A stretch of DNA of 64,000 nucleotides from Felis catus (GCF_018350175.1 NC_058368.1:19160001-19224000), one strand, 5' to 3'. Counted from the stretch's first letter, positions 353 to 56,623 are shown. The notes: generated by a model from the letters alone, not told the origin. Made by a program: numbers and translations.

Positions 353-405
353 CTTTCATCAAAGGGTCAACACTAGTTACTTTTTTCCCCTGACTTGGGT
401 CATTG
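353..405 (-). CDS. TPTE2: Repeat exon, only 53 nt (apparent 1-nt deletion): NDPSQGKKVTSVDP...
   Basis: tttttaatcctttag| acceptor and AG|gtgaga donor are intact, but the length is not a multiple of 3. Confidence 0.55.
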
Positions 406-704
406 CTAAAGGATTAAAAATGCACATTTTAAGACTTCACATGTCTCTCTAGATTTGTTTAATTTTTATATGAAAATTAGGTACAATTTGGCTACAATTT
501 GTACTCAAGTGGACTTAAAAATAATTTAATCAGCCTTGGATACCTGGCATTCAATGTTTCCCTACAAATGAGGCTTTATATGCTTAAAATGAGACTCTTA
601 CTCCTGTGGACAAAAACTTAATAAATCAAGTTTGTGTACATTTTCTTGACTCCTGAATCTTCTCCTTGCTCCAAAATGGGTTTATCTCCTCTCTTTTTCT
701 ACTT

Positions 705-925
705 TATTTTTTTAAGCTTATTTATTTATTTTGATAAAGAGAGCACGAGAGAGCATGAACAGGGGAGGAGAAGAGAGAAAGAGAGAAAGACAGAGAATCC
801 CAAGCAGACTCCATGCTGTCAGTGCAGAGCCCAACACGGGGCTTAATCCCGGGAACCATGAGATCATGATCTGAGCAGAAATCAAGAGTCAGATGCTTAA
901 CTGACTGAGCCACCCAGGTGCCCCT
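705..925 (-). mobile_element. CanSINE (SINEC)
   Basis: Reverse tRNA-derived head (..gagccacccaggtgcccc), (GA)n and T-rich tail. Confidence 0.9.
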
Positions 926-1140
926 TTGTTCCGCTTCCGTTAGAGTCTCATACATGGGGCATTTTGACAATTTCCTAGGGGTTTGGGTGGCCACTAGCTA
1001 AGGCTGACAAACAGGAGAGGAATAAGATGCATCCCCTCATGACCTGTTTCTCTTTTATCCAACTCTGTCTAAACTGGAGACAAAGTCACTTTCGTATGCC
1101 ACAGTAATTTGGAAATGGTGTCAAAGACTCTCAGTGTCTT

Positions 1141-1610
1141 CTGGAAAATAGTACGGAGGTTCCTCAAGAAAATAAAAATAGAACTACCCTACAACCCAGT
1201 AGTTGTACAGCTAGGTATTTATCCAAAGGATACAAACATGCTGATTCGTAGGGGCACATGTACCCTAATGTTTATAGCAGCACTATCAACAATAGCTAAA
1301 GCATGGAAAGAGCCCAAATGTCCACTGTTTGATGAATGGATAAAGAAGATGTGGTATATATATATATACACACATACACATGTGTATATGTACATATATA
1401 TATGTATATGTATATGTACATATACATATGTATATACATATATATGTATATGTACATATATATACATACACATATATGTATATGTACATATACATATGTA
1501 TATATGTATATGTACATATACATATGTATATACATACATATATATGTATATGTACATATATATACATACACATGTGTATATGTATATACACATATACACA
1601 CATATGTATG

Positions 1611-1641
<31 letters not shown>

Positions 1642-2083
1642 GAATATTACTCAGTGACCAAAAAGAATGAAATCTTGCCATTTGCAACAATGTGGATGGA
1701 ACTAGGGTGTATTATGCTCATTGAAATAAGTCAGAGAATGACACGTATTATATGATTTCACTCATGTGGAATTTAAGAAACAAAACGGATAAACATAGGG
1801 GAAGGGAAGCAAAAATGAGATAAAAACAGAGAGAGAGACACAAACCACAAAAGACTTAAATGCAGAGAACAAACTGAGGGTTGCTGGTGGGGTGTTGGGT
1901 GGGGGATGGGCTAAATGGATGATGAGCATTAAGGAGGGCACTTGTTGGAATGAGCACCGGATGTTATGTGTAAGTGATGAATCACTAAATTCTACTCTTG
2001 AAATCATTATTATACTATATGTTAACTAGGATTTAAATTAAAAAAAAAAAAAACAAGGAAGACACAGAAGGAAAAAAAAAAAA
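1141..2083 (+). mobile_element. 5'-truncated carnivore L1 (ORF2 C-terminus + 3'UTR + polyA)
   Basis: Translates ..IELPYNP..MFIAALSTIAKAWKEPKCP; L1 3'UTR; polyA; degenerate TSD aaagac..tgtctt. Confidence 0.92.
1355..1641. repeat. (TA)n/(CA)n compound microsatellite within L1
   Basis: Alternating purine-pyrimidine TATATACA/TATGTA repeats. Confidence 0.95.
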
Positions 2084-2208
2084 GACACTGTAATGTCTTG
2101 AATGCTCCTGAAAATGAACCTCCAAATCTCAGTCTCTCTCCCTCCCACCGTCTCCATATGTGTCTTTATACATGTATAGTTCTGTTTACATCTCTATTTA
2201 TATCTCAC

Positions 2209-2262
2209 ATGTCCTTGATGATTTCACCAGAAGTTACTGTTGTCAGTTCACTCAAGGCAATG
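2209..2262 (-). CDS. TPTE2: 54-nt repeat exon: IALSELTTVTSGEIIKD
   Basis: tttttatcccctag| acceptor, AT|gtgaga donor, open. Confidence 0.72.
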
Positions 2263-3171
2263 CTAGGGGATAAAAATGGGACAGAGTCAGACACTACATG
2301 ATATTCTACATTAAATACTTCAGGTCAGTTAGTTAAAATTACTCTCCAAATTACAAGATAGTTAACTCTTTTAAAATTTACATATAAATCAGTTATTTGA
2401 AACCTGGTATGTCGTTTCCCCCTAGAAATGAGGCTTTTTGTCTTTGTAATGAATACCTTGCACCTGTCAAAAAAATTAATGACTCAAGATTTAGGTACAG
2501 TTCTTTACTACTGAATCTGACTCAATGTGTAACATTCTTTTTGGGTGGGATTTATTTATTTACCTCAGCGTAGGAATACACCTCTCTTGACCAATCTAAT
2601 TTCCTCATTTGCAAGTCTTTCCAACCCATCTGTGCTTTTTAGGAATCATGGATGTCTTTCCTGCCCCTCAGCTAATATCAAATCACTACAGGTCTGGGTC
2701 AATGACTCTATCCAATATGATGGTAGGTCTGGGCTTGGGCACCCCCAGCTGCAAATGGTGGCAAACATACACAGATCCAAGTCTATAGGCTCAATTATTT
2801 TCTGCTGAGGCACCCTCTGCATCCTGTCCCCCCATATGTTTGCTGTTTATAATTTACTAGTATTCTCTTTCCTACCCTAGTACAGACTCAGACACAGGCA
2901 ATCTGAAAATTTCCTATCAGTTTGGCTGCTCATAACCGACGGTGAAGACTGGGGGTAAGAGAACTCCTTCTATGACCCGTTCATCTTTCTTCTACCTTGA
3001 TTCAAAAATCCTTGATTCTATATTACATATAGAAGCTTACCATGAGAAGACTTTACAAACAATCAAGAGAACGGTGTATCCCCACGGGGAGTGAACATCC
3101 CAAATCCCATCCCAAATCCCAATATGTGTGCGTACAGACACATATTTATGTATGTATTCATCATAGCTCAC

Positions 3172-3225
3172 TTTGCATTGGAGAGTCCTTTGGAGGATAC
3201 TGCTGTCCATTCACTCATGGCAGTT
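3172..3225 (-). CDS. TPTE2: 54-nt repeat exon: TAMSEWTAVSSKGLSNA
   Basis: ttttaatcctttag| acceptor, AA|gtgagc donor, open. Confidence 0.72.
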
Positions 3226-4176
3226 CTAAAGGATTAAAAGTAGACATAGTTAGACACCACATGACTTCTAGACTTACTGATTTAGTTCAAATTGTTTACA
3301 ATTACTCTTGAACTTACAAAATGGTTGATACTTAGAAAATTTGCCTGCAAATTAGTTATTTGAAACCCAATATCTCATTTTTCCTAGAAATGAACCTTTA
3401 TATGTTTGCAATATGTATTTTAGACCTAGCAAAAACATGAGTGATTCAAGAGTTAAGTACAGATCTTTTCTACTGATGCTGGCTCAGTGTGTACCAGCCT
3501 TTCATGGTGGAAATTATTTCAATTCGACCTCAATTTGCAAGTATACATCCTTCTTCCCTCCCAAATGTTCTGCTTCTCAAGTCCTTCCTTCATCTCCTTT
3601 TACCACTCTTGCCTTCTCTGCCCTCAGATAGTGTCAAGTAACTGCAGGCCTGAGGCAGGGGCTCCCTCCATGTGACTGTAGGTTTGGATCTGGGACAGCA
3701 GCCTCATATGGTGGCAGAACTCTTGGAGGGTGAACGATCCAGGTTCAATTAGCACCTTTCTTTCTGCTGAGGGCTCCTCTGTCCCCTGGCTACTGGCACC
3801 TCCTCTTTTGTCCTAGTAGGATTCTGTTCCCTCTTTACCCAGCCTAGTAAGACTCATACATAGGCACGCTGGAAATTTTCAAAGGTTTTGGCTTCTAGAC
3901 ACTAAGAGGAGGAAGGATTCCTCTTAGGACCTGCTCCTCTTTGATCCAAACAGATGCAAAAAGATAGGAAGTTACCTACAGGTGCTACAGTGAGAAGATT
4001 CAGAAACAAAGACACCGTATTGTCATGGATGATCCTGAGAATGCGTTTGGAAACCTTATCCCTTTCGCTCATAGCATTTGTTTTTGAACGTGTCTTTGTG
4101 TGTCTGTGTGCATATAAATGTAGACATACATATGTGCATATAAATATATATTTATCTTTATTCATTTATATCTCAC

Positions 4177-4230
4177 ATTTCACTGGTGAATTCCTCATAG
4201 CCATCTGATTTCGATTCAGTCAGGGCCGTG
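4177..4230 (-). CDS. TPTE2: 54-nt repeat exon: TALTESKSDGYEEFTSE
   Basis: tttaatcctttag| acceptor, AT|gtgaga donor; the other two frames contain stops. Confidence 0.75.
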
Positions 4231-4404
4231 CTAAAGGATTAAAGAGGTACATAATCAGACACCATGTGTAATACTAGACTGACTTTCCTTCATTTAAATA
4301 ACTATAATTGCTCTATACTTACGAACTGGTCAGTCTTTAAAAATTCATGTATTTACCACCTAATCGAACCTGGTAGGTCATTTTTTTTAGTAGAAATGAG
4401 GCTT

Positions 4405-4628
4405 GGGGTGCCCCTGGGTGACTCAGCTGGTTGAGCGTCTGACTTTGGCTCAGATCATGATCCCATGATTCCGTGAGTTCAAGCCCAGCAATGGGCTCTG
4501 TGCTGACAGCTCAGAGCGTGAAGCCTGCTTTGGATTCTGTGTCTCCCCCTCTCTCTCTGCCCCTCCCCTGCTCATCTCTATCTGTCTCTCAAAAATAAAC
4601 ATTAAAAAGATTTCTAAAAAGAAAGAAA
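4405..4628 (+). mobile_element. CanSINE with TSD agaaatgaggctt
   Basis: SINEC head, (CT)n, polyA; flanking direct repeat. Confidence 0.92.
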
Positions 4629-4924
4629 GAAATGAGGCTTTATATGAGATGTTAATGACTACCTTAGGCCTATAAATAATGCATCAATCTGTAAGTTCTT
4701 TACTGTCACTCTAAACTGATTGTGTAACAGCCTTTTGTAGTAGAATTTATTTCAAATTCAACTTCAGTTTGGAGACAGCCATCCCTCTTATCCATTTAAA
4801 TTCCTGGTTCTGAGGCCCTTCCCTCTTCTCCTGACTTTCATCTAAGGGTTTGGCTGCTAGAAAGGGAAACAAATCCACTCAGGGTAAGAAGTACCCCTCT
4901 TATGTCTTCCCCTTTTATTCAACT

Positions 4925-4957
<33 letters not shown>

Positions 4958-8560: not shown

Positions 8561-9745
8561 AATTGCCTTTTAAAAGTGAAAGTGAGGGGATGGAGAACCA
8601 TAGATCAGGCTAACTGAGGTCAAAAGAAAGCTGGAGTAGCCCTACTTATATCAGACAAACTATATTTGAAACCAAAGGCTAACATGAAATGAAGAATAGG
8701 TCTACCCTAATAATTAAGGGGTCTATCCATCAAGAAGATCTAACAATTATAAATATTTATGTCCCTAACTTGAAAGAACCCAAATATATAAATCAATTAA
8801 TAACAAACATAAAGAAACTAATTTATAATAATACAATATTATTAGGGGACTTTAACACCCCACTTACAACAGTGGACAGGTCATCTAAGCAGAAAATCAA
8901 CAAGGAAACCACATCTTTGAATGACACACTGGAACAGATGGACTTAACAGATATATTCAGAATATTTCAACTTAAAGCAGGAGAATACACATTCTTTTCA
9001 AGAAAACATGGAACATTCTCCAGAATATATCATGTATTGGGTCACAAATCAGCTCTCAAAAAGTACAAAAAGATCAAGCCCATACCACACATTTTCAGAC
9101 CACAGTGGTACAGAATTTGAAATCAACCACAAGAAAAAATATGAAAACAACATGAGTACTTGGAGATTAAAGAACATCCTATTAAAAAATGAATGGGCTA
9201 ACTAAGAAATTAAAGAGGAAATTAAAAAGTACATGGAAGCCAATGAAAATGAAAATACGACAGTCCAAAATCTTTGTGGTGCAGGAAAGGCAGTCAGAAG
9301 AGGGAAGTATATAGCAATCTAGGCCTTCCTAAAGAAGAAATGAATGTCTCAAATACACAACCTAACATTACACCTAAAAGGGCTGGAAAAAGAAAAGCAA
9401 ATAAAGCCCTAAATCCGCACAAGAAAGGAAATAATGAAGATTAGAGCAGAACTCAATGATATCGGAAAAAAACAAAAAATGTAGACCATAACAGTGAAAC
9501 TAGGAGCTGGTTCTTTTAAAGAATTAACAAAATTGGTAAACCCCTAGCCAGATGTCTCAAGAAGAAAAAAGAAAAAAACAAAATAGATAAAAAATAAGAA
9601 TTAAAGAGGAGAGATCACAACTAACACCACAGAAATACAAACAACTATAAGAGAATATTATGAGCAAGATATGCCAACAAATTGGGCAATGAGCAAGAAA
9701 TGGATAAATTCCTAGAAACATATAAACTATCAAAACTGAAATAAA

Positions 9746-9967: not shown

Positions 9968-11262
9968 CTGAAATAGGAAGAAATAGAAAACTTGAATAGA
10001 TCTGTAAGTAGTAAAGAAATTGAATCAGTAATCAAAAATCTCCCAACAAACAGGGTCAGATAGCTTCCCAGGAAAATTTTACCAAACATTAAAGAAGAAT
10101 TAATACCTAATCTTCTCAAACTATTTAAAAAAATAGAAATAGAAGGAAAACTTCCAAGCTTATTCTACGAGGCCAGCATTACCTTGATTCCAAAACTAGA
10201 CAAAGACCCCACTAAAAAGGAGAATTACAGACCAATATCCCTGATGAACACTGATGCAAAAATTCTCAACAAGATACTAACGAGATACTGGCACAAAAAC
10301 AATCAATGGAATAGAATAGAGAACCCAGAAATGGACCCTCAAATGTCTGGCCAACTAAATCAAAGCAGGAAAGAATATCCAACGGAAAAAAGATGGTCTT
10401 TTCAACAAATAGTTGAAGAATGGGAAAACTGGACAGCAACAGGCAGAAGAATGAAAACGGACCACTTTCTTACACCACACAAAAATAAACTCAAAATGGA
10501 TGAAATACCTAAAGGTAAGACCATAAAAAATCCTAGAAGAGATAGCAGGCAGCAACCTCTTTGACCTCAGTGGCAGCAATTTCTTAGACATGTCTCCCGA
10601 GGCAATGGAAACAAAAGCAAAATGAACTATTAGAACCTCATCCAGATGAAAAGCTTCTGCACAATGGAAGGAAACAATTAACAAAACTATAAGGCAATTG
10701 ATGGAATAGGAGAAGATTTTTGTAAATCTTCTGATAAAGTGTTAGTATTCACAATCTATAAAGAATATATCAAACTCAACATGAAAAAAACAAACAACCC
10801 AGTTCACACGTAGGCATAAGTCATGAGCAGACACTTTTCCAAAGAAGACATCCAGATGGCTAGCAGACACATGATGCTCAACATCACTCATCATCAGGGA
10901 AATACAAATCAAAACCACAATGAGGTACCACCTTGCACCTGTCAGAATGCCTAAAATTAATGACTCAGGAAACAACAAATGTGGGCAAGGATGCAGAGAA
11001 AGGGGAAGACTTTTGCACTCCCGGTAGGAATGTAAACTGGTGCGGCCACTCTGGAAAACAGTATGGATGTTCCCCAAAAAATTAAAAATAGACTACCCTA
11101 CAACCCAATAATTGTACTACTCAATATTTATTCAAGGATACAAAAATGCTGATTTGAAGGGGCACATGCACCCCAATGTTTATAGCAGCACTATCAACAA
11201 TAGCCAAAGTATGGAAAGAGCCCAAATGTCCATCAACTGATGAATGGCTAAAGAAGATGCGG

Positions 11263-11319: not shown

Positions 11320-11850
11320 GAATATTACTTAGTCACCAAAAAGAATGAAAGCTTCCATTTGCAATGACGTGGATGGAACTAGAGTGCACTATGCTAAGCA
11401 AAAGAAGTCAGTCAGCGAAAGACAAAAATCATATGATTTTACTCATATGTGGAATTTAAGAAACAAAACAGATGAACATAGGGGAAGGAGAGGCAAAATA
11501 AAATAAGATAAAAACAGAGAGGCAAACCTTAAGAGACAACTAAATATAGAGAAAAAAACAGGGTTGCTGGAGTGGAGCTGGTGGGGGGATGGATTAAATG
11601 GGTGACAGGCATTAAGGAGGACATTTGTTGGAATGAGCACAAGGTGTTATATGTAAGGGATGAAGCACTAAATTCTACCCCTAAAACAAACACTACACTA
11701 TATATTAACTAACTTGAATTTAAATAAATAAAAAAGACACCCTGTGGATGCACCTGTCATTTTAAAAATCTCATATCTCTCTTTGTTGTTTTATGTGTGT
11801 ATGTGTCTAGATTATACATACAATTTTAAATTTATGCATTCATATCTCAC

Positions 11851-11904
11851 ATTTCATTGGTGGATTCCTCATAGTTTTCTAATGTCAGTTCATTCTGGGC
11901 ATGG
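11851..11904 (-). CDS. TPTE2: 54-nt repeat exon: HAQNELTLENYEESTNE
   Basis: Same splice sites and sequence as 14063-14116. Confidence 0.75.
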
Positions 11905-12884
11905 CTAAAGAATCAAAAAGGTACATAGTCAGACACAATGTGTAATTCTAGATTTCCTTTTTTCCATTCAAATAGCTACAATTATTCTACAGTATGAGTT
12001 GGTTGAGTTTTAAGAGTCCAAGTGCAAATCAATAATCTGGAACTTGTGTGTCATTTCATATTAGAAATGAGGGTTTATATGGTGGTAATGATTATCTTAG
12101 GCCCATGAATAGTGAACACATCAAGACTTAGGTAAAGTGTTCTTAGTCATTACCCTAACCCAATATGTAACTACCTTTGGTGGTAGAATTTCAATTTGAC
12201 TTCAGTTTATAGGTTTATAAGTACATATCCCTTTGACTCCAACTAATTGCATGATTGGCAATTTCCTCCATCCCCTGCTTACTCTTCATGCTTCATGGCT
12301 GTCTTTCCAGACCCTCAGACAGGTTAAGTAACTAAAGACCTGAGGCAGAGGCTCCCTCCAATATGGTGGTGGGTTTGGGGCACTAGTCTCACATGGCAGC
12401 AGAGTTCTGGAGTATGCAGGACAGACCCAGTTTCAATTAGCTCCTTTCTTCCTGCTGAGGGCTTCTCTGTCCACTGGCTACTGCTACCTCCTACTTTGTC
12501 TTAAGTAGGATTCTGTTCCTTCTTCACCCAATCTAGTAAGACTCATACATGGACATTCTGGAAATCTCCAAAAGGTTTTGGCAGCTAGTTACTAGGAGGA
12601 GAAAGGATTCTTCTTATGACCTGCTCCTCTTTGATCCAAATAGATCCAAAAAAAGGCAGGAAGTTACCTACAGGTGCTACAGTGAGAAGATTCAGAAACA
12701 TTCAAAGACACTGTATTGTCATGGATGATCCTGAGAATGCATTTGGAAACCTCATCCCTTTCATTCATTGTATTTATGTTTGCATACATGTCTTTGTGCA
12801 TCTGTGTTGATATAAGTATATTCATACATATGTGCATATACATATATATAAATCTATATTTATCTTTGCTCGTTTATATCTCAC

Positions 12885-12938
12885 ATTTTACTGGTGACTT
12901 CCTCATAACTGTCTGATTTCCATCCAGTCAGGGTTATG
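12885..12938 (-). CDS. TPTE2: 54-nt repeat exon: ITLTGWKSDSYEEVTSK
   Basis: tttaatcttttag| acceptor, AT|gtgaga donor, open. Confidence 0.75.
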
Positions 12939-13580: not shown

Positions 13581-14062
13581 GAAATGAGGCTTTATATGGG
13601 ATGCTAATAACTACCTTAAGCCTATGAAAATTTATGCATCAATCTATAAGAAGTTCTTTGCTATCACTCTAAACCCAGTGTGTAACAGCCTTTTGTAGTA
13701 GAATTTATTTCAAACTCAACTTCAGTTTGGAGGAAACAATCCCTCTTATCCATTTAAATTCCTGATTCTGAGGCCCTTCCCTCTTCTCCTGACTTTCATC
13801 TAAGGGTTTGGCTCCTGCTAAGAGAAACAAATCCATTCAGAGGAAGAAGCATTCCTCTTGGGCCCTCCTCTTTTAGATTTAACTAAATTTAAAAGAAGTT
13901 ACCTAGATATACTACAGTGAGAGAACTTAGGAGCAGTATTGAAGATACTCTATTGCTGTGGATACTCCCGAGAAGGTTTTTTACAAATATTAATCTCTCT
14001 ATTGTTTTATGTATTTGTTGAGATTATACATACAATTTTAAATTTATGCATTCATATCTCAC

Positions 14063-14116
14063 ATTTCATTGGTGGATTCCTCATAGTTTTCTAATGTCAG
14101 TTCATTCTGGGCATGG
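14063..14116 (-). CDS. TPTE2: 54-nt repeat exon: HAQNELTLENYEESTNE
   Basis: tttgattctttag| acceptor, AT|gtgaga donor; only the phase-2 frame is open; identical to 11851-11904. Confidence 0.75.
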
Positions 14117-15118
14117 CTAAAGAATCAAAAAGGTACATAGTCAGACACAATGTGTAATTCTAGATTTCCTTTTTTCCATTCAAATAGCTACAATTATTCT
14201 ACAGTATGAGTTGGTTGAGTTTTAAGAGTCCAAGTGCAAATCAATAATCTGGAACTTGTGTGTCATTTCATATTAGAAATGAGGGTTTATATGGTGGTAA
14301 TGATTATCTTAGGCCCATGAATAGTGAACACATCAAGACTTAGGTAAAGTGTTCTTAGTCATTACCCTAACCCAATATGTAACTACCTTTGGTGGTAGAA
14401 CTTATTTCAATTTGACCTCAGTTTATAGGTTTATAAGTACATATCCCTTTGACTCCAACTAATTGCATGATTGGCAATTTCCTCCATCCCCTGCTTACTC
14501 TTCATGCTTCATGGCTGTCTTTCCAGACCCCCAGACAGGGCTAAGTAACTAAAGACTTGAGGTAGAGGCTTCCCCCCAGTATAACAGTAGGTTTAGGATG
14601 GAGTCTCAGCCTAATACAGTAGCAGAACTCTTGAGAGTCATGGACACATCAGTCTATTATCTCCATTGTTTCCTCCTGGCTTCAATGTGCCGCCCACTGT
14701 AGACTCTTCCTTGTTCCAAATACCAATCTCTCCTCTCTTGGCTCACCCTAGTAGAGTCTCATATACAGGCCATCTGGTAATTTCCTCAGGGTTTGGCTGC
14801 TACCCACTAAGGCTAACAAACATGCTTAGAGGAAGAAGCATCCCTTTCATGACCTGCTCCTATTTTAAGTGAATCTGAAAATAATAGTTATCTACAATGT
14901 AAATGTGAGAAGACTTAGAAAAAGTGTCAGACATTCTGTATTGCTTTGGATGTTTCTCAGGTGAATTTCACAAATTCTATTTCTTTGTGTTATATATCTG
15001 TGTGTGTGCAGGTGTATGAGTGTTGTGTGTTCGTGTTGACAGGAGCATGTATATGTGTGTGTGTATATATTATATACTTATATATATATACACATATCTT
15101 TATGCCTTTTAAGCTCAC

Positions 15119-15172
15119 ATTTCATTGTCGTCTTCCTCATAGGTTTCTGATGTCAATTCATTAGGGTTTGGG
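15119..15172 (-). CDS. TPTE2: 54-nt repeat exon: PNPNELTSETYEEDDNE
   Basis: ttttcaatcctttag| acceptor, AT|gtgagc donor, open in phase 2-2. Confidence 0.75.
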
Positions 15173-21861: not shown

Positions 21862-22090
21862 GCCCAATCTAGTAGAATCTCATATACAGCAATCTGACAG
21901 CTTTCCCAAGAGTTTTGGCTGCTGGTAACTCAAGACAGGAGGGCCTGTTCCTCCTCTATCCAATTAGATAAAAAAAAAATGTTAATACAGAAGTTGATAT
22001 TGCCAACACTTTAGAAAGAGTGTCCAAGAAACTCTGCACTGAATATCTTGTACTTTTATATATACATATACCATACATATACATATACAT

Positions 22091-22130
<40 letters not shown>

Positions 22131-22133
22131 CAC

Positions 22134-22187
22134 CTTTTACTGGTGACTTCCTTATCAGTTACTGATGTCAATTTATTTCGATCAGAA
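22134..22187 (-). CDS. TPTE2: 54-nt repeat exon: SDRNKLTSVTDKEVTSK
   Basis: ttttatcctttag| acceptor; donor AG|gtggtatgt (two GTs 3 nt apart); open. Confidence 0.7.
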
Positions 22188-23202: not shown

Positions 23203-23259
23203 CTATTGTTGATATTGTGGCCAGAGGACACCAAAGAGGACATTGGAGTGTTGTTATAT
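23203..23259 (-). CDS. TPTE2: 57-nt exon: YNNTPMSSLVSSGHNINN
   Basis: tttttttccctttggcag| acceptor, AG|gtgagt donor, open in phase 2-2. Confidence 0.7.
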
Positions 23260-24125: not shown

Positions 24126-24129
24126 CCAA

Positions 24130-31788: not shown

Positions 31789-34700
31789 ACTAAGCTATAT
31801 AGCTTCTCTGATTTTCTGCCTGCTCAATTTTTTTTTCTTTTTCTTTTCCCTGCCTCTGTCATTTCTCTCTTTGTATGGGATAAGGCCTTTTCCATCACCT
31901 CCCCCATCTTATTTAAACTTTTCCATATATACTTCAATGAACAAATCAAAGCACACCTGGTGGAAGGTTCAAACCACCACTATGAGTAGGGAGATAAAGC
32001 AACCAGAGTCATAACAACAGCATGAAACACACTCCAAAAACACCTCCTAAAGAGCCAAGCCCTGAACAGCATATGATCCCTTTTTAATATAGTAGTGATC
32101 ACAGGTGCAGGACTCATAACAAGCTATTAAAACACATAAGGGACAGAAAACTAGCCAATATGATGAAATGGAAGAGTTCTCAAAAGAAATTCCAGGGATA
32201 AATGACAGCTAGAGAATTGCTCAAAACAGATATAAAAATATAACTGAGTGAGAATTTAGAATAACAGTCATAAGATTAATAGATGGGCTTGAAAAAAGCA
32301 CAGATGACAGCAGAGAATCTATTACTGCAGAGATCAAGGACCTAAGAAATAGTCACTACAAATTGAGAAATGTTGTAAATGAGGTGCAAGATAAACTAGA
32401 TGCAGTGACAGTAGGATGGAGGAGGCAGAGGGGAGATTAAGTGAAATAGAAGATAAAATTATGGAAAATGAAGCCGAGAAAGAGATAAGTAAATACTAGA
32501 CCATGAGGGGAGAATTAAAGAACTAAGTGATTCAATGAAATGTAATAATATCCGTATCACAGGAGTTCCAGAAGAAGAGAGAGAGAAAGGGACAGAAGGT
32601 CTACTTGAACAAATTATAGCTGAGAACTTCCCTAACCTGGAGAAGGATATGGCTATCCAAAGCCAGGAGGCACAGAGAACTCCCTTCAGATTTAACAGGA
32701 ATAGATCTTCTCCACGGGATATCATAGTGACACTGGCATAATACAGATAAAGAGAGAAATCTGAAAGCAGCTAGGGACAAGTGGGCCTTAACTTACAAAG
32801 GTAGACACATAAGGGTAGTGGCAGACCTATCCACTGAAACTTGGCAGGCCAGAAGGGAGTGGCAGAAAATATTCAATGTGCTGAATAGGAAAAATATGCA
32901 GCCAAGAATCCTTTATCCAGTAAGTCTATCATTCAGAATAGAAGGAGAGATAAAGGCTTTCCCAGACAAACAAAAACTGAAGGAGTTCATGACCACTAAC
33001 CCAGCCCTACAAAGAGATCCTAAGGGGAACTCTGTAAGTGGAATGCTATAAAGATTACAAAGGACCAGAAACATCACCACAAGCATGAAACCTACAGATA
33101 ACACAATGACACTAAATCCATATATTTCAGTAATAACTCTGAATGTAAATGGACTAAATGCCCCAAGCAAAAGACCTAGGTTATCAGAATGGATAAAAAA
33201 CCAGATCCATCTATATGCTGTCAACAAGAGACCCATTTTAGACCTGAGGACACCTTCAGATTTAGTGAGGGGATGGAGACCCCTTTATTATGCTATTGGA
33301 AATCAAAATAAAGCTGGTGTAGCCATACTTATATCAGACAAACTAGATTTTAAACTAAAGGCTGGAACAAGAGATGAAGAAGGGAATTATATCATAATTA
33401 TGGTATTGATCCATCAAGAAGAGCTAATAATTATAAATTTTATGCTCCCAACTTGGAGGCACCCAAATACATAAGTCAATTAATCACAAATATAAGCAAT
33501 CTTATCGATAAGAATAAATTAATTGCAGAGAAATTTAATACTCCACTTACAACAATGGACAGATCATCTAGGCAAAAATCAATAAAGAAACAATGGCCTT
33601 GAATGATACACTGGACCAGATGGACTTGACAGGTATTCAGAATTTTTCATCCAAAAGCAGAATACACATTCTTCTCAAGTGCACATGGAACATTCTCCAA
33701 GATAGATCACATGCTGAGTCACAAAAAGAGCCCTCAATTAATATAAAAGAATCGAGAGCATACCATGCATATTTTCTGATCACAACACTATGAAACTTGA
33801 AATCAACCACAAGAAAAAATTTGGAACTCCTCCAAATGCATGGAGGTTAAAGAACATCCAACTAAAGAATGAATGGGTCAACCAGGCAATTAAAGAAGAA
33901 ATTAAAAAATATATGGAAGCAAATAAAAATGAAAACATGACAGTTTAAACCCTTTGGGATGCAGCAAAGGCAGTCATAAGAGGAAAATACATTGCAATCC
34001 AGGCCTATCTCAAGAAACAAGAAAAATCCCAAATACAAAATCTAACAGCACACTTAAAGTACCTAGATGCAGAACAGCAAAGAAACCACAAAGTCAGCAG
34101 AAGAGAAATAATAGAGTAGAACAGAAATAAACAATATAGAATCCAAAAAAACAGTTGAACAGATGAGTCTAAGAGCTGGCTTTTTGAAAAAATAAAATTG
34201 ATAAACCCCTAGCCAGACTTCTCAAAAAGAGAGAGGACCCAAATGATAAAATCACGAATGAAAGAAGACAGATCACAACCAACACCACAAAAATACAAAC
34301 AATTATCAGAGAATACTATGAAAAATTATATGCTAACAAACTGGACAACTTGGAGGGAATGGACAAATTCCTAGACACCCACACACTACCAAAACTCAAA
34401 CAGAAAGAAATAGAAAATTTTAACAGACCCATACCAAGCAAAAAAATGGAATCCGTTATCAATAATCCCCCAACAAATAAGAGTCCTTGGCAAGATGGCT
34501 TCCAGAGAGATTCTACCAGACATTTAAAGCAGAGTTAATATCTATCTTTCTCAAGCTGTTCTATAAAATAAAAATGGAAGGAAAGCTTCCGGACTCATTC
34601 TATGAAGCCAGCATTACCTTGATTCCCACACCAGACAGAGACCCCACTAAAAAGCAGAATAACAGACCAATATCCCTGATGAATATGGATGCATTCTCAA

Positions 34701-37390
34701 CAAGATACTAGCAAATCAAATTCAATAATATATCAAAAGATTATTCACCATGATCAAGTGGGATTCATTCCTGGGCTGCAGGGCTGGTTCAATATTCGCA
34801 AATCAATCAATGTGATACATCACTTGAATGGAAGAAAGGGTAAGAACCATATGATCCTGTCAATAGATGCAGAGAAAGTATTTGACAAAATACAGCATCC
34901 TTTCTTAATAAAGACCCTCAAGAAAGTTGGGATAGAAGGAACATACCTCAACATCATAAAAGCCGTATATGAAAAGCCCACAGCTAATATCATCCTCAAC
35001 GGGGAAAAACTGAGAGCTTTCTGCCTGAGATCAGGAATACAGCTGGGATGTCCACTCTCACCACTGTTGTTTAACATAGTGTTGGAAGTCCTAGCATCAG
35101 TAATCAGACAACAAATGAAATAAAAGGCATTCCAATTGGCAAACAAGTCAACTTTCACTTTTCACAGATGACATAATACTCTAGATGGTAAATCAAAAGA
35201 CTCCACCAAAAAGCTACTAGAACTGATACATATAAATTCAGCAAAGTCACAGGATACAAAGTCGATGTACAGAAATCAGTTGCATTTCTATATACCAATA
35301 ATAAAACAACAGAAAGAGAAATCAAGAAATCAATCATATTTACAATTGCACCAAGAACCATAAAATACCTAGGAATAAACCTAACCAAAGATGTAAAGAT
35401 CTACATGCTGAAAACTACAGAAAACTTATGAAGGAAATTGAAGAAGACACAAAGAAATGTTAACAAATTCCATGCTCACAGATTGGAAGAACAAATATTG
35501 TTAAAATGTCAGTGCTACCCAAAGCAATCTACATATTCAATGCAATCCCAATCAAAATTGCACTGGCTTTCTTCTCAAAGCTAGAACAAACAATCCTAAA
35601 ATTTATATGGAACCACAAAAGACCCTGAATAGCCAAAGTTATGTTGAAAAAGAAAACCAAAGTGGGAGACATCACAATCCTGGACTTTAGCCTCTCTACA
35701 AGGCTCATCAGGACAGTATAATACTGGCACAAGAACAGACACAGACCAATGGAATAGAATAGAGAACCCAGAATTGGACCCACAAATGTATGGCCAACTA
35801 ATCTTTGACAAAGCAGGAAAGAGTATACAATGGAAAGAAGAGGCTTTTTTTTTTTAATGTTTATTCATTTTTGAGAAACAGAGAGAGACAGAGCATGAGC
35901 GGGAGAGGGGCAGAGAGAGAGGGAGACACAGAATCCGAAGCAGGCTCCAGGCTCTGAGCTGTCAGCACAGAGCCCGATGCAGGGCTTGAACTCAGACTGT
36001 GAGATCATGACCTGAGCTAAAGTCAGACGCTCAACCAACTGAGCCACCCAGGTGCCCTGAAAAGAGTCTCTTTAGCAAATCATGCTGGGAGAACTGGATA
36101 GCAACATGCATAAGAATGAAACTAGACTGCTTTCTTACACCACACACAAAAATAACTCAAAATGGATGCAAGACCTAAATGTGAGACAGGAAGCCATCAA
36201 AACCTTAGAAGAGAAAACAGGCAACAGTCTCTTTGACCTCAGCCACAATAATTTCTTGCTCAACACATCTCTAAAGGCAAGGGAAATGAAAGCAAAAATA
36301 AACTATTGGGACCTCATCAAGATAAAAACCTTCTGCACTGCAAAGGAAACAATCAACAAAACTAAAAGGCAACCAACAGAATGGGAACAGATATTTGTAA
36401 ATGACACATCAGATAAAAGATAGTATCCAAAATCTATAACAAACTTACCAAACCCAACACCCAAAAAGCAAACGACCCAGTGAAGAAATGGGCAGAAGAT
36501 ATGAATAGACACTTTTCCAAATAGGATCACCAGATGGCCAACAGACACATGAAAAGATGTTCAACACCAGTCATCATCAGGGAAATACAAATCAAAACCA
36601 CACTGAGATACCACCTCACACCAGTAAGAGTGACTAAAATTAACAATTCAGGAAACAACAGATGTTGGCAAGGATGTGAAGGAAATGGGAACCCTCTGGC
36701 ACTGTTGGTGGGAATGCAAACTGGTGTAGCCACTCTGGAAAGCAGTGTGGAGGTTCTTCAAAAAATTAAAAATAGAACTACCTTATGACCCAGAAATAAC
36801 TCTACAAGAACTTATCCAAAGGATATAGGAGTGCTGATTCATAGGCATACATGTACCCCCATGTTTATAGCAGTGCTTTCAACAATAGCCAATTTATGGA
36901 AAAAGCCCAAATGTCTATCAATTGATGAATGGATAAAGAAGATATGGTTTATATATACAATGAAATACTACTTAGCAATGAGAAAGAATGAAATCCTGTC
37001 ACTTGTAGCAACATAGATGGAACTGGAGGGTGTTATGCTAAATGAAATGTCAGTCAGAGAAAGACAGATATCATATCTTTTCACTCATAAGTGGAACTTG
37101 AGAAACTTAACAGAAGACCACGGGGGAAAGAAAGGGGAAAAAAATAGTTTCAAACAGAGAGTGAGACAAACCATAGGAGACTTTTAAATACAGAGAACAA
37201 ACTGAAGGTTGATGGTGGCGGGGAGGGAATCGGTGATGGTCATTGAGGAGTGCACTTGTTGGGATGAGCACTGGGCATTGTATGTAAGTGATGAATCATG
37301 GTAATATACCCCCAAACCAAGAGCACATGGTATACACCGTTAGCTAACTTGACAATAAATTATATATATTAAAAAAAATTTTATTAAAAC
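30603..37390 (+). mobile_element. Full-length but frame-disrupted carnivore L1, TSD aaagatat
   Basis: 5'UTR; ORF1 pieces (NNIRITGVPEEEREKG, ADLSTETWQARREW); EN, RT ([22 protein letters not shown]) and C-terminal pieces; 3'UTR. Confidence 0.93.
35845..36058 (-). mobile_element. CanSINE in L1 ORF2
   Basis: Reverse SINEC. Confidence 0.9.
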
Positions 37391-46024: not shown

Positions 46025-46071
<47 letters not shown>

Positions 46072-51820: not shown

Positions 51821-51874
51821 CTTTCATTGGTGGCTTCATTAGAGATTCCTGATATGAATTCATCTAGATCATCT
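51821..51874 (-). CDS. TPTE2: 54-nt repeat exon: DDLDEFISGISNEATNE
   Basis: tttaattctttag| acceptor, AG|gtaagg donor, open in phase 2-2. Confidence 0.75.
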
Positions 51875-52781
51875 CTAAAGAATTAAAAATGTGTATGATC
51901 AGACCCCAGTGGCTTCATAGCCAAACTTCTGTTTTAACTTAGCTTTGTTGTTGTTGTTGTTGTTGTTTGTTTTTTAGAATTCAGCCAGCTTACAAATTGA
52001 AGACTCCCTGTAACTATTTGTAAATTAGTTATTTGGAAACTGGCATTTCCATTTTCCTTAGAAATGGGTTTTTTTTTTTTAATAGCAGTAATGAAAATCT
52101 CTGGCTTAACAAATCAAAAAAGCCTAACAAATCAAGGCAAGTACAATTCTTTACTGCTAAATTCAATTCTCCTGAAACTGCACTGAGGTGGAATTTACTT
52201 CAAAATATAGCTTCATTTTGTAGGTATACAGTCTTTCAGCTTATTTCCTGATTATCAAGTTTCTTCACTGTATCCTTACTCTTCGTGTGTCATGTAAGTC
52301 TCTTCTGTTCCTGAGTTTGGTTCAAATAACTGCAAGCTTGAGTCAGGGGCTTCCTCAAATATAATGATGGGTTTATATCTGAAACACCAGCTTCAGATGA
52401 TTGTAAACCTCTGGAGGGAAAGGGGACAGACCAAGGTCTATGAGCTCCATCCTTTTCTGCTGAGAGCTCCACAGTTACCTGTCCACTGCCACCTCTCGCT
52501 CAAATAATAGGATCCTCTCTTTACCTGGTCTACTCTAGCAGAGTCTCACACACATATATTATGAGAGTATCCTAAGAAACTCTGGCTTCTGGTTACTAAG
52601 GGTCATAAACTATGAGCAGGAAGTCTCCCTCTTCTGACATGTTCTTCCTTTTATCCCCCCGACTTAGACCCCAAAAGAAAGACAGTTATTTACAGAAGCT
52701 TACAGTCTCTTATGGAAACCTCTTATTGCCAACAATGCTCTCTAATACCTTTCGGCACTCAGATCAGTCAAGTCAACTCAC

Positions 52782-52817
52782 CCATGGTCATCACTGTTGT
52801 CAGAGGAATCCATAATT
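52782..52817 (-). CDS. TPTE2: Micro-exon, 36 nt (39 nt with alternative acceptor): IMDSSDNSDDH
   Basis: tttagcag| acceptor, GG|gtgagt donor, open in phase 2-2; paralogous to exon 23203-23259. Confidence 0.65.
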
Positions 52818-53287
52818 CTGCTAAAGGGTAAAAACACACAAAAAATAAATTCAGACATTCTGGAAAGCAATCAGTTTCTTCTTCCCGACAGAATTTTATG
52901 ACATGAAAAGTAAAATCATGAGGAAACATGACAAAATGACAGAAACATTGTCAGCGTACAGCAATGAGACCTCTGAGATAGCCTCTTGGCTGTGTGTGTG
53001 TCTGCCCACTGGAAAGAGAAGGAAAGAATTAAGGGAGGTATAATTTTTGTGATTAAACCTCCTTTCTTCTCCATTTTGTCAACCATTCACATATTCTGGA
53101 ATCCGTTTGGGAAATAGGAATGATCTGAGCAAAAGGATGGGGAGGGAGATCCAGATAATAACTAATGAAAAGATACAGAGATAAAGAAAATACCACAACA
53201 ATAAATATTCCGGTTTCAAGGACTAGTCCCTGATCACCATTTGGTAGAGAAGAAACTAGTAGGTAGGTCAAGAATTGCCTAAATAAT

Positions 53288-53492
53288 GGGGCACCTGGGT
53301 GGCTTAGTTGGTTAAGTGACTCCTGATTTCAACTCAGGTCATAATCTCATGGTCCATGAGATTGAGCCTGCATTGGGATCTGTGCTGACAGTGCAGGGCC
53401 TGCTTGGGATTCTCTCTCTCTCCCTCTCTCTCTCTCCCCCTTTCCCCCATGCTCTCTCTTTCTCTCTCTCTCTCACTCAAAACAAACAAACA
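53288..53492 (+). mobile_element. CanSINE
   Basis: SINEC head and (CT)n. Confidence 0.88.
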
Positions 53493-54159
53493 GGTATTCA
53501 GAATGGTTTCTTTTTCTCTCAATTCATTTTACGAAAAGGTATCTGGTTAAATTATCCAAAGTCAAGACTCCTCACCACCAAACCACTGGCTTGGATAACT
53601 TAATTTCTCTACAATTTAATTTTCTCATCTGTAAAATAAGACACATTGAAATGCACTTTCATTTGTCCAGGTAATAAAATCATGCTGTATGTTCATCATA
53701 TCACAAACATTACTGGTTTTTAGGCAGCCTTCCCTCTTCACCAAATGTTATACCAAAAATACCAATGTGACAAACAACATGGAAGAAAATCATAAATTTC
53801 AAAAACACTTCAAGATTCTCAAAGTACTAAATTTCCATAATTTCCTAGGAAATCTTGGATTCCTATCCATAGGAGAGTCTTCCTCCCAAAACTATAGAAG
53901 TCAAACTGAAGTATGGATTTTAAAAACTAACAATAACAGAAACCCTGGGAGAAGCCAGAAGACTGAGAGCTGTCTTCTGTGGTGGACAGACTGAGGAAAA
54001 AGTCTGATACAGGCAGTCTTGAGGGGCTTAGCGGGAGGGAAATTTTTAAGTTCTTTTCTTGCTTTTCCTCTGAGTTGCTTGGAGACAATAACTGCCATTC
54101 TCAGTAGAAACCAGAAGCCACTACCCAGATGTAGTTAGGATAAAATTTGGGTAGCATTG

Positions 54160-54365
54160 TGGCACCTGGGTAGTTCAGTCAGTTGAGCATCTAATTCTTG
54201 CTTTTGTTCAGGTCATGATCCCAGGTTTGTGGGATCAAGCCCTTTGTTGGGCTCTGCACTGAGCATGGAAACTGCTTAAGATTTTCTCTCTCTCTGTCTC
54301 TCTCTCTCCCTCCCCCCATCCCTCTCCCCCACTCACATGGTTTCTCTCACTCTAAGATAAAAAAA
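54160..54365 (+). mobile_element. CanSINE (older)
   Basis: SINEC head and (CT)n. Confidence 0.85.
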
Positions 54366-54942
54366 TTTTTCATTGGCATTAGGTTAGCTGATGAAAACAG
54401 GGAAGGGCTAAAGAGCAATCCTTGGGCCTTCACTCTTCCACCCTTTTACCTCCAAAAGTCCCAGGTGAACAACCTAGAAGTCTGCCTTCTCCAATGCTGC
54501 TTTTGTCCAAGACCTTAAAGGTAGCATATCTTGACAAGAGAAATTACCTGGATCACAGTGTTTCACCATTATGCAGAGTCTCTGTCCCCAGGCTATCACC
54601 TCCCTTCATGTTATATTTACTGAGAAAAACATACCTTAGGTCCTAGCTTTCAACAACAGTTACTATATAAAACGTCACCCAACCCAGGATACGTTTGAAA
54701 GTGAAAAGGACATGTTATTAATAATTTTGCTGAGACAACAGCCACAGATTGAGATTTTCCCAAGAAAATCTTCAGTCCTTCCCTAATACAATTTACCAGT
54801 CAGAGGGCTCAATGGCCACAAGGAATATGAGCTCACAAATCAAAATAGTTAGATACCTGATGAGTACGACTGAAAAAGAGACACAACAAACTGAAAAACA
54901 TATACCATCTGAAACAGGACTATTGGAACATACTGAACAAGA

Positions 54943-55281
54943 TTTTTTTTTAACATGAAATTTATTGTCAAGTTGGTTTCCATACAACACCCAGTGCTCA
55001 TCCCAACAAGTGCCCTCCTCAATACCCATCACCCACCCCCCCTCCCTCCCACCCCCCATCAACCCTCAGATTGTTCTCAGTTTTTAAGAGTCCTTTATGG
55101 TTTTCCCTCCCCCTCTTTTTCCTTCCCCTCCCCCATGGCCTTCTGTTAAGTTTCTCAGGATCCACATAAGAGTGAAAACATATGGTATATCTGTCTTTCT
55201 CTGTGTGACTTATTTCACTTAGCATAACACTCTCCAGTTCCATCCACATTGCTACAAAAGGCCATATTTCATTCTTTCTCA
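54943..55281 (-). mobile_element. Young L1 3' fragment, TSD tgaacaagattttt
   Basis: Reverse felid L1 3'UTR; direct repeats at ~54934 and ~55282. Confidence 0.9.
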
Positions 55282-56231
55282 TGAACAAGATTTTTAAGTA
55301 AACATGAGAAATACACTTAAAGATACAAGGGAAGATGTTAGTAACATGAAATAAGAATAAGAAATCGTATTGAAAAACCCAAGAGGATATCTTAAATGTA
55401 AAAGTCAAATTGTTGAAATAAAGAATCACTTCATGGCATAAACAGTAATTTGGATACATGTCGAAAGCAAGTTAATCCAGAGTTGGAAGAGGAGGTTGAG
55501 AAATCCCCAGAAAACAGAAGAGACCACAAAAGAAAAACCAGTTGATATAAAGGATAAAAACAGATCTCTAACACCTGGACTCTAGATAACAAAATATATA
55601 TATATATTTTTAAATAAATTTCCCCAAATTAAAGAAAATATCAAAAGTGATGTTTCATCTAACAAACATTTACATGGTATTTACTAAGTGCCAGGTATTG
55701 TCCTCATGCTTCACAAATATTTCAATTGGTCCTCAACCTTCAAGATAGTTACAATTATTATTTATTTTAACCAATTCACAGATCTTGAATAGTCATGTTT
55801 CTAATATCCACCATACTGATTTATAAGCCACTCATTGCTAATAAAAATTTGTGACCTTCCCTGTGGTAATTTACAGTGTTTCAGGTATTGATTGAAATGG
55901 GACAATGGAAGCCCTTGCAATGACCATCTCAAAATGGTCATCCCCCACCAGCCATGGACAGAGCATCCCCCATAAGGGCATCCAGCTGTCCTAGAGGGAA
56001 AGCTTAAAGTGACTGTAACTGGCATATGCATATTGTTAATGGCATACTGTCTAAGCAGTAGTAGCATAGGAAATTGTAAGCATAAAACAGTGTCTTTAAG
56101 TTGTGAGTTTGCCGAATTTCATTTATGTATAGTTTACGCTCATTACGAAAGAAGGTATATATATATATTCCCTATTCAATTCACCTTGAATGGTGCTTAA
56201 AATTTGGTAAAATTTGCATCTTATTACTTAC

Positions 56232-56290
56232 TTATTATTTCTTTGATGCATGAACCAGAGATATAAAGGGTTCCTCTTTAATCTCTGCAT
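56232..56290 (-). CDS. TPTE2: Probable first coding exon (whole exon 56232-56327): MQRLKRNPLYLWFMHQRNN+AA
   Basis: Long poly-T acceptor ending in CAG at 56328-56347, donor AA|gtaagt, ACCATG Kozak context, ends in phase 2 matching the downstream exons; LYLW motif as recalled for mouse Tpte. Confidence 0.75.
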
Positions 56291-56623
56291 GGTATTGTCT
56301 TGTGGACAACCACAATCTACAATTAATCTGAAAAAAAAAAAGAAAAGCACATATGACTTTTATATTCAGGATTTTTAAAATACATAGGATACTTGCCCTG
56401 TTAGGAAGAAAGTCACACATAGAACCTACCAGGTATGCATTGGCCTTTCTAAAGTCTTGAATCTACAACTTATAAGATCCACAACACTGTACAATTTTAT
56501 CATTCCTCTGAAATATGTATTCTGTATTTTATTTTAGTTCAAGGAATGGAAGAAAAAGTTTTTTGAATGTTCAGTAAAATTTAAGTTTAGTTCAAAGACA
56601 GAACACTTTAAAGACTGCTCTCT

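What the first reader, a model, noticed from the sequence alone, without database searches (positions are those of the whole stretch)
353..56327. Hidden micro-exon array building an expanded N-terminus on a TPTE/VSP-like gene
Seen: twelve 36-57-nt exons with strong AG/GT sites. Eleven are symmetric phase 2-2 and open in the same frame, even though their amino-acid sequences diverge. They follow an ATG exon that also ends in phase 2, giving ~230 aa that no ORF track reports as a unit. Known (from recall): human TPTE/TPTE2 carry only 2-3 such 18-aa/54-nt exons, whose skipping defines isoforms; mouse Tpte has a longer N-terminus with LYLW near the start. Inference: this felid carries a lineage-expanded modular N-terminal domain on the sperm voltage-sensing PI phosphatase. 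Because the exons are symmetric, any subset can be skipped, allowing combinatorial isoforms.
Basis: partly seen in the sequence, partly recalled or inferred. Interest (0 to 1): 0.85.

Follow-up and report, generated by a model that had tools for sequence, protein, structure and literature searches.

The report
Cat TPTE2 N-terminal micro-exon array
The window holds the 5' part of the cat's sperm-type voltage-sensing phosphatase gene (TPTE2), whose long N-terminal tail is built from tandemly duplicated 54-base exons; the array is real, but it is already in the public gene model and is not special to cats.

Summary
On the minus strand there is an ATG exon (56232-56327) followed by twelve 39-57-nt exons. 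Eleven are multiples of 3 and open in the same phase. The twelfth (353-405) is 53 nt.

The gene identity also holds. Voltage-sensor, P-loop and C2 exons lie 20-110 kb further along the same strand. Splicing the ATG exon, ten of the window's twelve micro-exons and one more unit 0.4 kb outside the window gives exactly the first 213 residues of Felis catus RefSeq TPTE2 isoform X1 (707 aa). The array is therefore not hidden.

Two of the twelve exons are in none of the 34 felid models parsed: 22131-22187, and the frame-breaking 353-405.

The expansion is not felid-specific. Horse, mustelid, dog, bear, pangolin, mole and macaque models carry their own amplified 18-aa units, and 6 of 93 non-felid models have longer N-termini than the cat.

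One new detail: a 510-bp gene-conversion-like tract makes two exon units near-identical.

Verdict: a real and correctly named feature, already annotated, of modest interest.

The parts
56232..56327 (-). Exon E1: 5'UTR part plus ATG (56290-56288). It encodes residues 1-19 (MQRLKRNPLYLW...) plus 2 nt, so it ends in phase 2.
   Evidence: tblastn of the cat model is 100% over residues 1-19.
52782..52820 (-). Exon E2, 39 nt, symmetric. Skipped in some felid isoform models.
51821..51874 (-). Exon E3, 54 nt, a member of the repeated exon-unit family. Skipped in some felid isoform models.
   Evidence: (E = 2.5e-31)
23203..23259 (-). Exon E4, 57 nt, symmetric. Not a member of the 54-nt repeat family by nhmmer. 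Present in the full-length felid models.
   Evidence: and 51 (100% over residues 51-69)
22131..22187 (-). Exon-like unit E4b (57 nt, or 54 nt with the alternative donor). It is open, with intact AG and GT, and a (TG)n run abuts the donor. It is in no felid model. It is orthologous to an exon used in the horse model (13 of 17 aa identical) and the bear model (10 of 17).
   Evidence: (E = 7.6e-30)
15119..15172 (-). Exon A, 54 nt, carries TYEED
14063..14116 (-). Exon B, 54 nt, carries NYEES. Its nucleotide sequence is identical to B'.
12885..12938 (-). Exon C, 54 nt, carries SYEEV
11851..11904 (-). Exon B', 54 nt, identical to B
4177..4230 (-). Exon C', 54 nt, carries GYEEF
3172..3225 (-). Exon D, 54 nt
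2209..2262 (-). Exon E, 54 nt. Present in the Felis, Acinonyx, Leopardus and Prionailurus models. Absent from all Panthera and Neofelis models.
353..405 (-). Unit F, 53 nt, a paralogue of the next unit G with a 1-nt deletion. Splice sites are intact, but inclusion shifts the frame and gives a stop in G. It is in no model, so it is probably a dead or NMD-only pseudo-exon.
   Evidence: (E = 1.4e-30), (73.5% to the G unit)
14021..14530 (-). Gene-conversion-like tract of unit B. It is near-identical to about 11809-12314 in unit B' (1 substitution and one 4-bp indel in 510 bp).
11809..12314 (-). Partner of the conversion tract, in unit B'. Coordinates are derived from the exon offset and are approximate at the ends.

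Best explanation
The window contains the 5' third of the single TPTE/TPTE2 (voltage-sensing phosphoinositide phosphatase, VSP) gene of the domestic cat. The gene is transcribed from the minus strand and spans about 167 kb.

Its N-terminal cytoplasmic tail (residues 1-213, ahead of the S1-S4 voltage sensor) is encoded by an ATG exon plus a chain of 39-57-nt exons that all start and end in the same phase. Most of these exons belong to one family of roughly 1-kb genomic units: a 54-nt exon with conserved acceptor and donor flanks, multiplied by tandem duplication.

Because every unit is a multiple of 3 in one phase, units can be gained, lost, homogenised by gene conversion (B and B') or skipped in splicing without disturbing the downstream enzyme.

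The product is an acidic, Ser/Thr-rich tail that is probably disordered, and its length and content differ between mammalian lineages.

Inferred, not shown: the tail modulates trafficking, localisation or partner binding of the sperm VSP rather than voltage sensing or catalysis. Two copies (F and a partial copy just outside the window) are decayed. One (E4b) looks intact but is unannotated in felids.
For: Gene identity and colinearity:
- The window is C1:19160001-19224000, and a PTEN_C2 hit lies at C1:19049701-19049805 on the minus strand.
- Open frames with S1-S2, S3, S4 and C2 sequences lie downstream on the minus strand.
- The S1-S2 exon is 100% identical to a Felis catus UniRef entry, and the other hits are TPTE2 or TPTE2-like proteins.
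- tblastn of the cat model P0051 places 542 of 707 residues at >= 90% identity on the minus strand from C1:19216290 to 19049686.
- The P-loop HCKGGKG|RTG is split between exons at C1:19111093-19111173 and 19080164-19080226.
- PDB TPTE2 9c49_A matches at E = 1.1e-189 over cat residues 234-702, and the Ci-VSP voltage sensor 4g7v_S at E = 4.5e-22.
- Pfam PTEN_C2 hits at 1.8e-33, with no family in residues 1-440 at E <= 0.001.

The array:
- The spliced window exons plus unit G equal residues 1-213 of P0051 exactly.
- The unit family gives 10 nhmmer hits at E <= 7.6e-30 in the window, plus 1 strong and 1 partial hit just downstream.
- Units are homologous over 0.3-1.4 kb at 65-82% identity.
- There is a conversion tract of 510 bp.
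- Panthera models carry the same T>I change in both B and B'.

Skipping: 12 distinct whole-exon patterns occur among the 30 felid models with a parseable array (34 parsed in all).

Tail properties: D+E 42, K+R 15 and S+T 47 of 213 residues. AF2 pLDDT is 23-27 with no secondary structure over residues 18-214, against 50-84 in the core (the model is poor overall).

Function hints from papers (passages read):
- Replacing the mouse VSP N-terminus (M1-S211) together with the S2-S3 loop raised surface expression (PMC11344830).
- N-terminal swaps changed trafficking but not voltage sensing (PMC12652588).
Against: - No RNA evidence was obtained here, so exon use rests on computationally predicted RefSeq models whose supporting reads I could not see.
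- The tail is barely conserved: no invariant column before residue 259 in a 23-species alignment. It is nearly absent in human TPTE2, at 37 aa. It could therefore be functionally neutral.
- The AF2 model is poor overall (mean pLDDT 43.2), so the disorder call is weak.
- The near-identity of B and B' could in principle be an assembly artefact, although five other felid genera's models also carry both copies.
Confidence: 0.85

Rival explanations
1. The array is transcribed and spliced but is functionally neutral filler. On this reading it is a disordered spacer whose copy number drifts by unequal crossing-over because symmetric exons are harmless, with no selected role.
For: - Extreme lineage variation in unit number and type.
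- Human TPTE2 keeps only 37 aa of it.
- No invariant column in the N-terminus.
- N-terminal swaps do not change voltage sensing (PMC12652588 and PMC11344830, passages).
- Decayed copies (F and the partial copy) sit in the array.
Against: - All 10 annotated repeat-family copies keep the same open frame and intact splice sites, although their introns have diverged to 65-80% identity.
- E4b is 13 of 17 aa identical to the horse exon.
- The N-terminus influences trafficking in heterologous cells (PMC11344830, PMC12652588).
- The YEE core recurs in 5 cat units.
Confidence: 0.25
2. The repeated acidic Y-E-E-(V/F/S/D) cores make the tail a multivalent phosphotyrosine docking platform, for example for SH2-domain proteins during sperm maturation or capacitation. 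Valency would be set by exon number and skipping.
For: - Five YEE motifs at 18-aa spacing in the cat, at residues 81, 99, 117, 135 and 153.
- YEE or YE(D) cores also occur in dog, bear, hyena and ferret units.
- The resemblance to the pYEEI-type SH2 optimum is recalled knowledge, not tested here.
Against: - There is no phosphorylation or binding data.
- The motif is absent from the horse, pangolin, macaque, mouse and human tails.
- Acidic Tyr motifs are common in disordered regions.
Confidence: 0.1
3. Some or all of the micro-exons are prediction artefacts. Gene predictors thread open symmetric pseudo-exons, and the real cat transcript has a much shorter N-terminus.
For: - UniRef holds cat and Panthera entries of 407-487 aa that lack the array.
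Against: - The same exon chain is modelled independently in Felis, Acinonyx, Leopardus, Prionailurus, Panthera and Neofelis, with graded isoforms.
- Homologous units are modelled across many orders.
- Mouse Tpte, a named (not 'PREDICTED') entry of 664 aa, has a 175-aa extension, and the 211-aa mouse N-terminus was cloned from testis cDNA (PMC11344830, passage).
- Splice sites are strong and the frame is kept.
Confidence: 0.05

Closest known systems
Felis catus RefSeq model TPTE2 isoform X1 (XP_019681383.1 / XP_044908341.1, 707 aa; P0051)
   Same: Its first 213 residues are letter for letter the splice of window exons E1, E2, E3, E4, A, B, C, B', C', D and E plus unit G. The contig length on record for it equals that of C1.
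   Different: Nothing differs for the 11 window exons it uses (E1 plus ten micro-exons).
Human TPTE / TPTE2 (TPIP) N-terminal 18-aa cassette exons
   Same: The same gene family, the same position ahead of S1, and the same 18-aa unit size. Human TPTE2 (P0120) shows two units. Alternative splicing of the family is the subject of Tapparel et al. 2003, seen only as a reference in PMC3229583; the paper itself is not held.
   Different: The human extension is 37 aa against 213 in the cat. Unit sequences have diverged, and there is no YEE core.
Mouse VSP (Tpte) long N-terminus
   Same: A long cytoplasmic N-terminus before S1: M1-S211 in PMC11344830, and a 175-aa extension by my anchor. It has the same ...LYLW... 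start. Experimental swaps affect surface expression.
   Different: The mouse tail shows no obvious 18-aa periodicity with the felid-trained profile.
Lineage-specific arrays in other mammals' TPTE2-like models (horse, ferret, mink, pangolin, macaque, mole, dog, bear, hyena)
   Same: The same architecture and the same unit types (E2/E3-, C-, D- and G-like).
   Different: Different units are amplified (all): horse about 9 x a 34-aa E2+E3 pair, mustelids about 6 x a 36-aa C+D pair, pangolin about 9 x an E3-like unit, macaque 4-5 x a 36-aa pair, felids A-B-C-B'-C'.

Membership tests
Voltage-sensing phosphatase (VSP / TPTE family) | S1-S4 voltage-sensor domain N-terminal to the phosphatase | tested here: met
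   phmmer against Ci-VSP VSD 4g7v_S gives E = 4.5e-22 over cat residues 242-395. TPTE2 9c49_A gives E = 1.1e-189 over 234-702. The exons lie at C1:19139439-19139603, 19136568-19136687 and 19134970-19135077 on the minus strand.
Voltage-sensing phosphatase (VSP / TPTE family) | PTEN-like phosphatase domain with a C(X)5R P-loop (HCKGGKGRTG, the active type) | tested here: met
   P0051 contains AIHCKGGKGRTG. The motif is split over exons at C1:19111093-19111173 and 19080164-19080226. Pfam PF22785 and PF22784 score over their cut-offs.
Voltage-sensing phosphatase (VSP / TPTE family) | PTEN-type C2 domain at the C-terminus | tested here: met
   PF10409 at E = 1.8e-33 over residues 568-702, and a genome hit at C1:19049701-19049805 on the minus strand.
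Voltage-sensing phosphatase (VSP / TPTE family) | The window's exons are colinear with, and on the same strand as, the core exons (one gene) | tested here: met
   tblastn order and strand, and an exact 213-aa match to the start of the same model.
Voltage-sensing phosphatase (VSP / TPTE family) | Testis or sperm expression and voltage-dependent activity | not testable with these tools
Alternatively spliced cassette micro-exon array | Exons are multiples of 3 in one shared phase, with functional splice sites | tested here: met
   11 of 12 micro-exons qualify; the twelfth is 53 nt.
Alternatively spliced cassette micro-exon array | Inclusion and skipping seen in RNA | not tested
   The only support is predicted isoforms: 12 exon patterns among the 30 felid RefSeq/UniRef models with a parseable array. 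Junction reads could not be obtained.

The most novel reading that the evidence does not exclude
The N-terminal tail of the mammalian sperm voltage-sensing phosphatase may be a hotspot of recurrent, independent exon amplification and concerted evolution, with different 54-nt units multiplied in felids, canids, mustelids, horse, pangolin and macaques, and an active conversion tract in the cat. In carnivores the amplified units carry evenly spaced acidic YEE(V/F) cores. These could act as a splice-tunable, multivalent phosphotyrosine docking platform that controls where or with what the enzyme works in sperm. No paper listed by my searches, by title and start of abstract, and none of the passages I read in five of them, describes the array.
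Probability: 0.12. Interest if true: 0.55.

Novelty: already known. Interest (0 to 1): 0.27.

Why it matters
The result, however, duplicates the public annotation.

Biologically, VSP is needed for the normal phosphoinositide layout and motility of mouse sperm. Its long, variable N-terminus is the part experimenters routinely cut off or swap to get surface expression (PMC11344830, PMC12652588).

A comparative account of the array does not seem to be in the searched literature. Such an account would cover independent amplification of different units in many mammal lineages, whole-exon skipping and gene conversion. It would give a concrete handle on why mammalian VSPs traffic so differently, and it is a tidy case of exon-level concerted evolution in a reproductive protein. 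That is of moderate, specialist interest.

Tried and rejected
RNA junction test:
- The look-up of sequencing runs with the last coding exon plus 3' UTR (L009:9530-9797) listed 18 holders in 12 studies. No RNA holder was listed; 14 were guessed to be RNA.
No read evidence was obtained, and I did not resend anything.

Is E4b in any annotated protein?
- An 18-aa query was too short.
- A contiguous 59-aa read-through (P0139, region 1-40) gave no hit at E <= 10 among 1473 candidates. This is weak evidence only.
- Among the 138 fetched proteins, E4b-like peptides occur only in non-felids.

Other steps that led nowhere:
- The search of earlier findings by place and by words returned nothing.
- AF2 on a 23-sequence alignment gave a poor model (mean pLDDT 43.2, pTM 0.32). 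I used it only for the contrast between tail and core.
- Counting repeats with the felid-trained 18-aa HMM is biased towards felid units, so I used N-terminal length and inspection instead.

Literature:
- Searches listed no paper whose title or start of abstract describes the N-terminal exon array.
- I read only passages of PMC12652588, PMC3440755, PMC3229583, PMC4322731 and PMC11344830.
- Tapparel 2003 is not held.

Readings I rejected:
- That the exons are chance AG..GT pairs.
- That they belong to another gene.
- That the expansion is felid-only.
Full report
**1. What is in the sequence**

The window is mammalian DNA at 35-41% GC, with LINE fragments and microsatellites.

I scanned the minus strand for AG...GT intervals of 30-63 nt with a pyrimidine-rich acceptor, a GTRAG-like donor and at least one open frame. 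This gave 68 candidates. Among them was a conspicuous set of 54-nt intervals whose upstream 20 nt are almost the same. The plus strand gave 20 candidates. Only one of these was 54 nt, and it was not open solely at offset 1. On the minus strand there were eleven 54-nt candidates, eight of them open only at offset 1.

Aligning ten of these intervals with 60-nt flanks shows that exon, acceptor region and the first ~16 nt of the intron are all homologous. A profile of that alignment finds 10 hits at E <= 7.6e-30, all on the minus strand. The next best of 17 further hits has E = 0.025.

Reading the sequence directly fixes two exons:
- The ATG exon is at 56232-56327, with ATG at 56290 and donor TAA|gtaagt.
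- The last copy is at 353-405 and is 53 nt, not 54, because of a 1-nt deletion.

Eleven of them are symmetric and open in the same phase. Together they come to 697 nt, about 232 aa.

**2. Which gene**

The window is C1:19160001-19224000 of a 2.43-Gb assembly. A PTEN_C2 match lies on the minus strand of the same contig at 19049701-19049805. I fetched the 120 kb between that hit and the window.

- Its minus-strand open frames contain recognisable S1-S2, S3, S4, C2 and C-terminal segments.
- The S1-S2 frame hits a Felis catus UniRef entry at 100% identity. The other hits are TPTE2 or TPTE2-like models from felids and other mammals, 42 proteins at E <= 0.001.
- The 90%-identity cluster of one hit contains Felis catus TPTE2 isoform X1 (P0051, 707 aa, XP_019681383.1 / XP_044908341.1). 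The contig length on record for it, 239,367,248, equals that of C1.
- tblastn of P0051 places 542 of 707 residues at >= 90% identity, all on the minus strand, from 19216290 down to 19049686.
- The P-loop is split as ...AIHCKGGKG | RTGTMAC... between exons at 19111093-19111173 and 19080164-19080226.
- P0051 matches the solved TPTE2 chain 9c49_A at E = 1.1e-189 (cat residues 234-702) and the Ci-VSP voltage sensor 4g7v_S at E = 4.5e-22.
- Pfam finds PTEN_C2 at 1.8e-33 and phosphatase families. It finds nothing in residues 1-440 at E <= 0.001.

**3. The array is already annotated**

I spliced E1, E2, E3, E4, A, B, C, B', C', D and E from the window with one further unit, G. G lies 0.4 kb beyond window position 1; its nhmmer alignment spans C1:19159437-19159598 at E = 4.5e-26. 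The result is a 213-aa peptide identical to the start of P0051.

- **E4b (22131-22187).** It is open and has intact sites, with a (TG)n run abutting its donor. It is in none of the 34 felid models parsed. It does correspond to an exon used in the horse model (13 of 17 aa) and the bear model (10 of 17).
- **F (353-405).** It is 53 nt. Including it gives a stop within G. No fetched protein resembles it closely; the best match is 8 of 17. Its unit is a 73.5%-identical paralogue of the G unit.

A further partial copy at C1:19159180-19159260 has lost its acceptor AG.

**4. Skipping**

I parsed 34 felid RefSeq/UniRef models, and 30 of them had a parseable array. Among these I count 12 distinct exon patterns:
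- the full chain;
- loss of E3;
- loss of E2+E3;
- loss of the A-B-C-B' block;
- loss of B or of B' alone;
- combinations of these.

E is present in the Felis, Acinonyx, Leopardus and Prionailurus models but in none of the Panthera or Neofelis models.

These are computed models, however, and I could not see their RNA support. My own attempt at junction evidence failed.

**5. Not a felid peculiarity**

A search with the conserved core of P0051 returned 906 proteins at E <= 1e-100, of which 120 were listed. I measured the N-terminal extension from a conserved anchor. Of 93 non-felid models, 37 have at least 100 aa, 22 have at least 150 aa, and 6 exceed the cat's 213 aa. Those six are horse at 359, three ferret isoforms at 288, European mink at 226 and a beaked whale at 226, part of which looks spurious.

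Inspection shows the same unit types amplified differently in each lineage:

| Lineage | Amplified units |
|---|---|
| Horse | about nine copies of a 34-aa E2+E3-like pair |
| Ferret and mink | about six copies of a 36-aa C+D-like pair |
| Pangolin | about nine E3-like units |
| Macaque | four to five 36-aa pairs |
| Mole | about six units |
| Dog and bear | a duplicated C-D pair |
| Hyena | three C units |
| Human TPTE2 | only two units (37 aa) |
| Mouse and rat | long tails (about 175 aa) without obvious periodicity |

Within the cat, paralogous units align over 0.3-1.4 kb at 65-82% identity. By inference, most duplications long predate the cat family.

**6. A recent conversion tract**

Exons B and B' are identical. 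An alignment of the ~1.5-kb stretches around A-B and C-B' is 45-70% identical per 50-column bin, except for one block that is 90-100% identical. Between 14021 and 14530 there is just one substitution and one 4-bp indel, with a 379-bp identical run. The sharp edges point to gene conversion.

Panthera models carry the same T>I replacement in both B and B'. That is what concerted evolution would give. An assembly artefact is not excluded, but it is unlikely because six genera model both copies.

**7. What the tail is like and what it may do**

Residues 1-213 have 42 D+E, 15 K+R and 47 S+T. There are five YEE cores at 18-residue spacing.

A 23-species alignment has no invariant column before residue 259. 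An AF2 model built on that alignment is poor overall (mean pLDDT 43.2). It does show pLDDT of 23-27 and no secondary structure across residues 18-214, against 50-84 in the core.

Passages from two papers bear on function:
- Replacing the mouse VSP N-terminus (M1-S211), together with the S2-S3 loop, with the Ciona ones raised surface expression in oocytes (PMC11344830).
- Swapping N-termini changed trafficking but not voltage sensing, and the region is treated as random coil (PMC12652588).

My preferred reading is a disordered, acidic, length-tunable tail that affects trafficking or partner binding. That last step is inference. The rivals are neutral filler (0.25), a multivalent pTyr docking platform (0.1) and prediction artefact (0.05).

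**8. Verdict**

The feature is already in public annotation, so I rate the novelty as already known.

The comparative pattern and the conversion tract are modestly interesting. No paper listed by my searches, by title and start of abstract, describes them, nor do the passages I read in five of those papers.

Noticed in passing
window 14021-14530 and about 11809-12314: A 510-bp near-identical tract (1 substitution and one 4-bp indel, with a 379-bp identical run) between two exon units whose surroundings are only 45-70% identical. This is a gene-conversion signature covering exons B and B'.
   Followed up: yes
just outside the window: C1:19159437-19159598 and C1:19159180-19159260 (locus L020): The array continues beyond window position 1. 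The first interval is the nhmmer hit that holds a functional unit (G), which is part of the cat model. The second is a partial copy that has lost its acceptor AG.
   Followed up: yes
window about 22078-22130: A (TG)n microsatellite directly abuts the donor of the unannotated exon-like unit E4b. It might weaken the use of that exon in felids.
   Followed up: no
window 60735-61826: A (GA)n/(CT)n simple repeat of about 1 kb, 4.4 kb upstream of the ATG exon. It produces long SLSL.../RERE... pseudo-ORFs on both strands.
   Followed up: no
window 8689-9120, 10184-10564, 34689-35123 (+ strand): LINE-type endonuclease and reverse-transcriptase fragments lie inside the gene's introns, antisense to it (Pfam Exo_endo_phos_2 at 2.1e-05, RVT_1 at 1.6e-20 and 5.9e-04). 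The 7.6-kb gap in the exon array between B' and C' holds two of them.
   Followed up: partly
outside the window: S4 exon at C1:19134970-19135077 (P0051, residues about 347-382): Cat S4 reads ...LFQSLRLIILIR..., where the 23-species consensus has ...LFRPLRLIILIR.... One S4 arginine is therefore replaced by Gln. The hyena model shows the same change.
   Followed up: no
window 1109-1755: A TA/CA-rich simple repeat giving YIYIYI-type pseudo-ORFs on both strands, inside the intron between units E and F.
   Followed up: no
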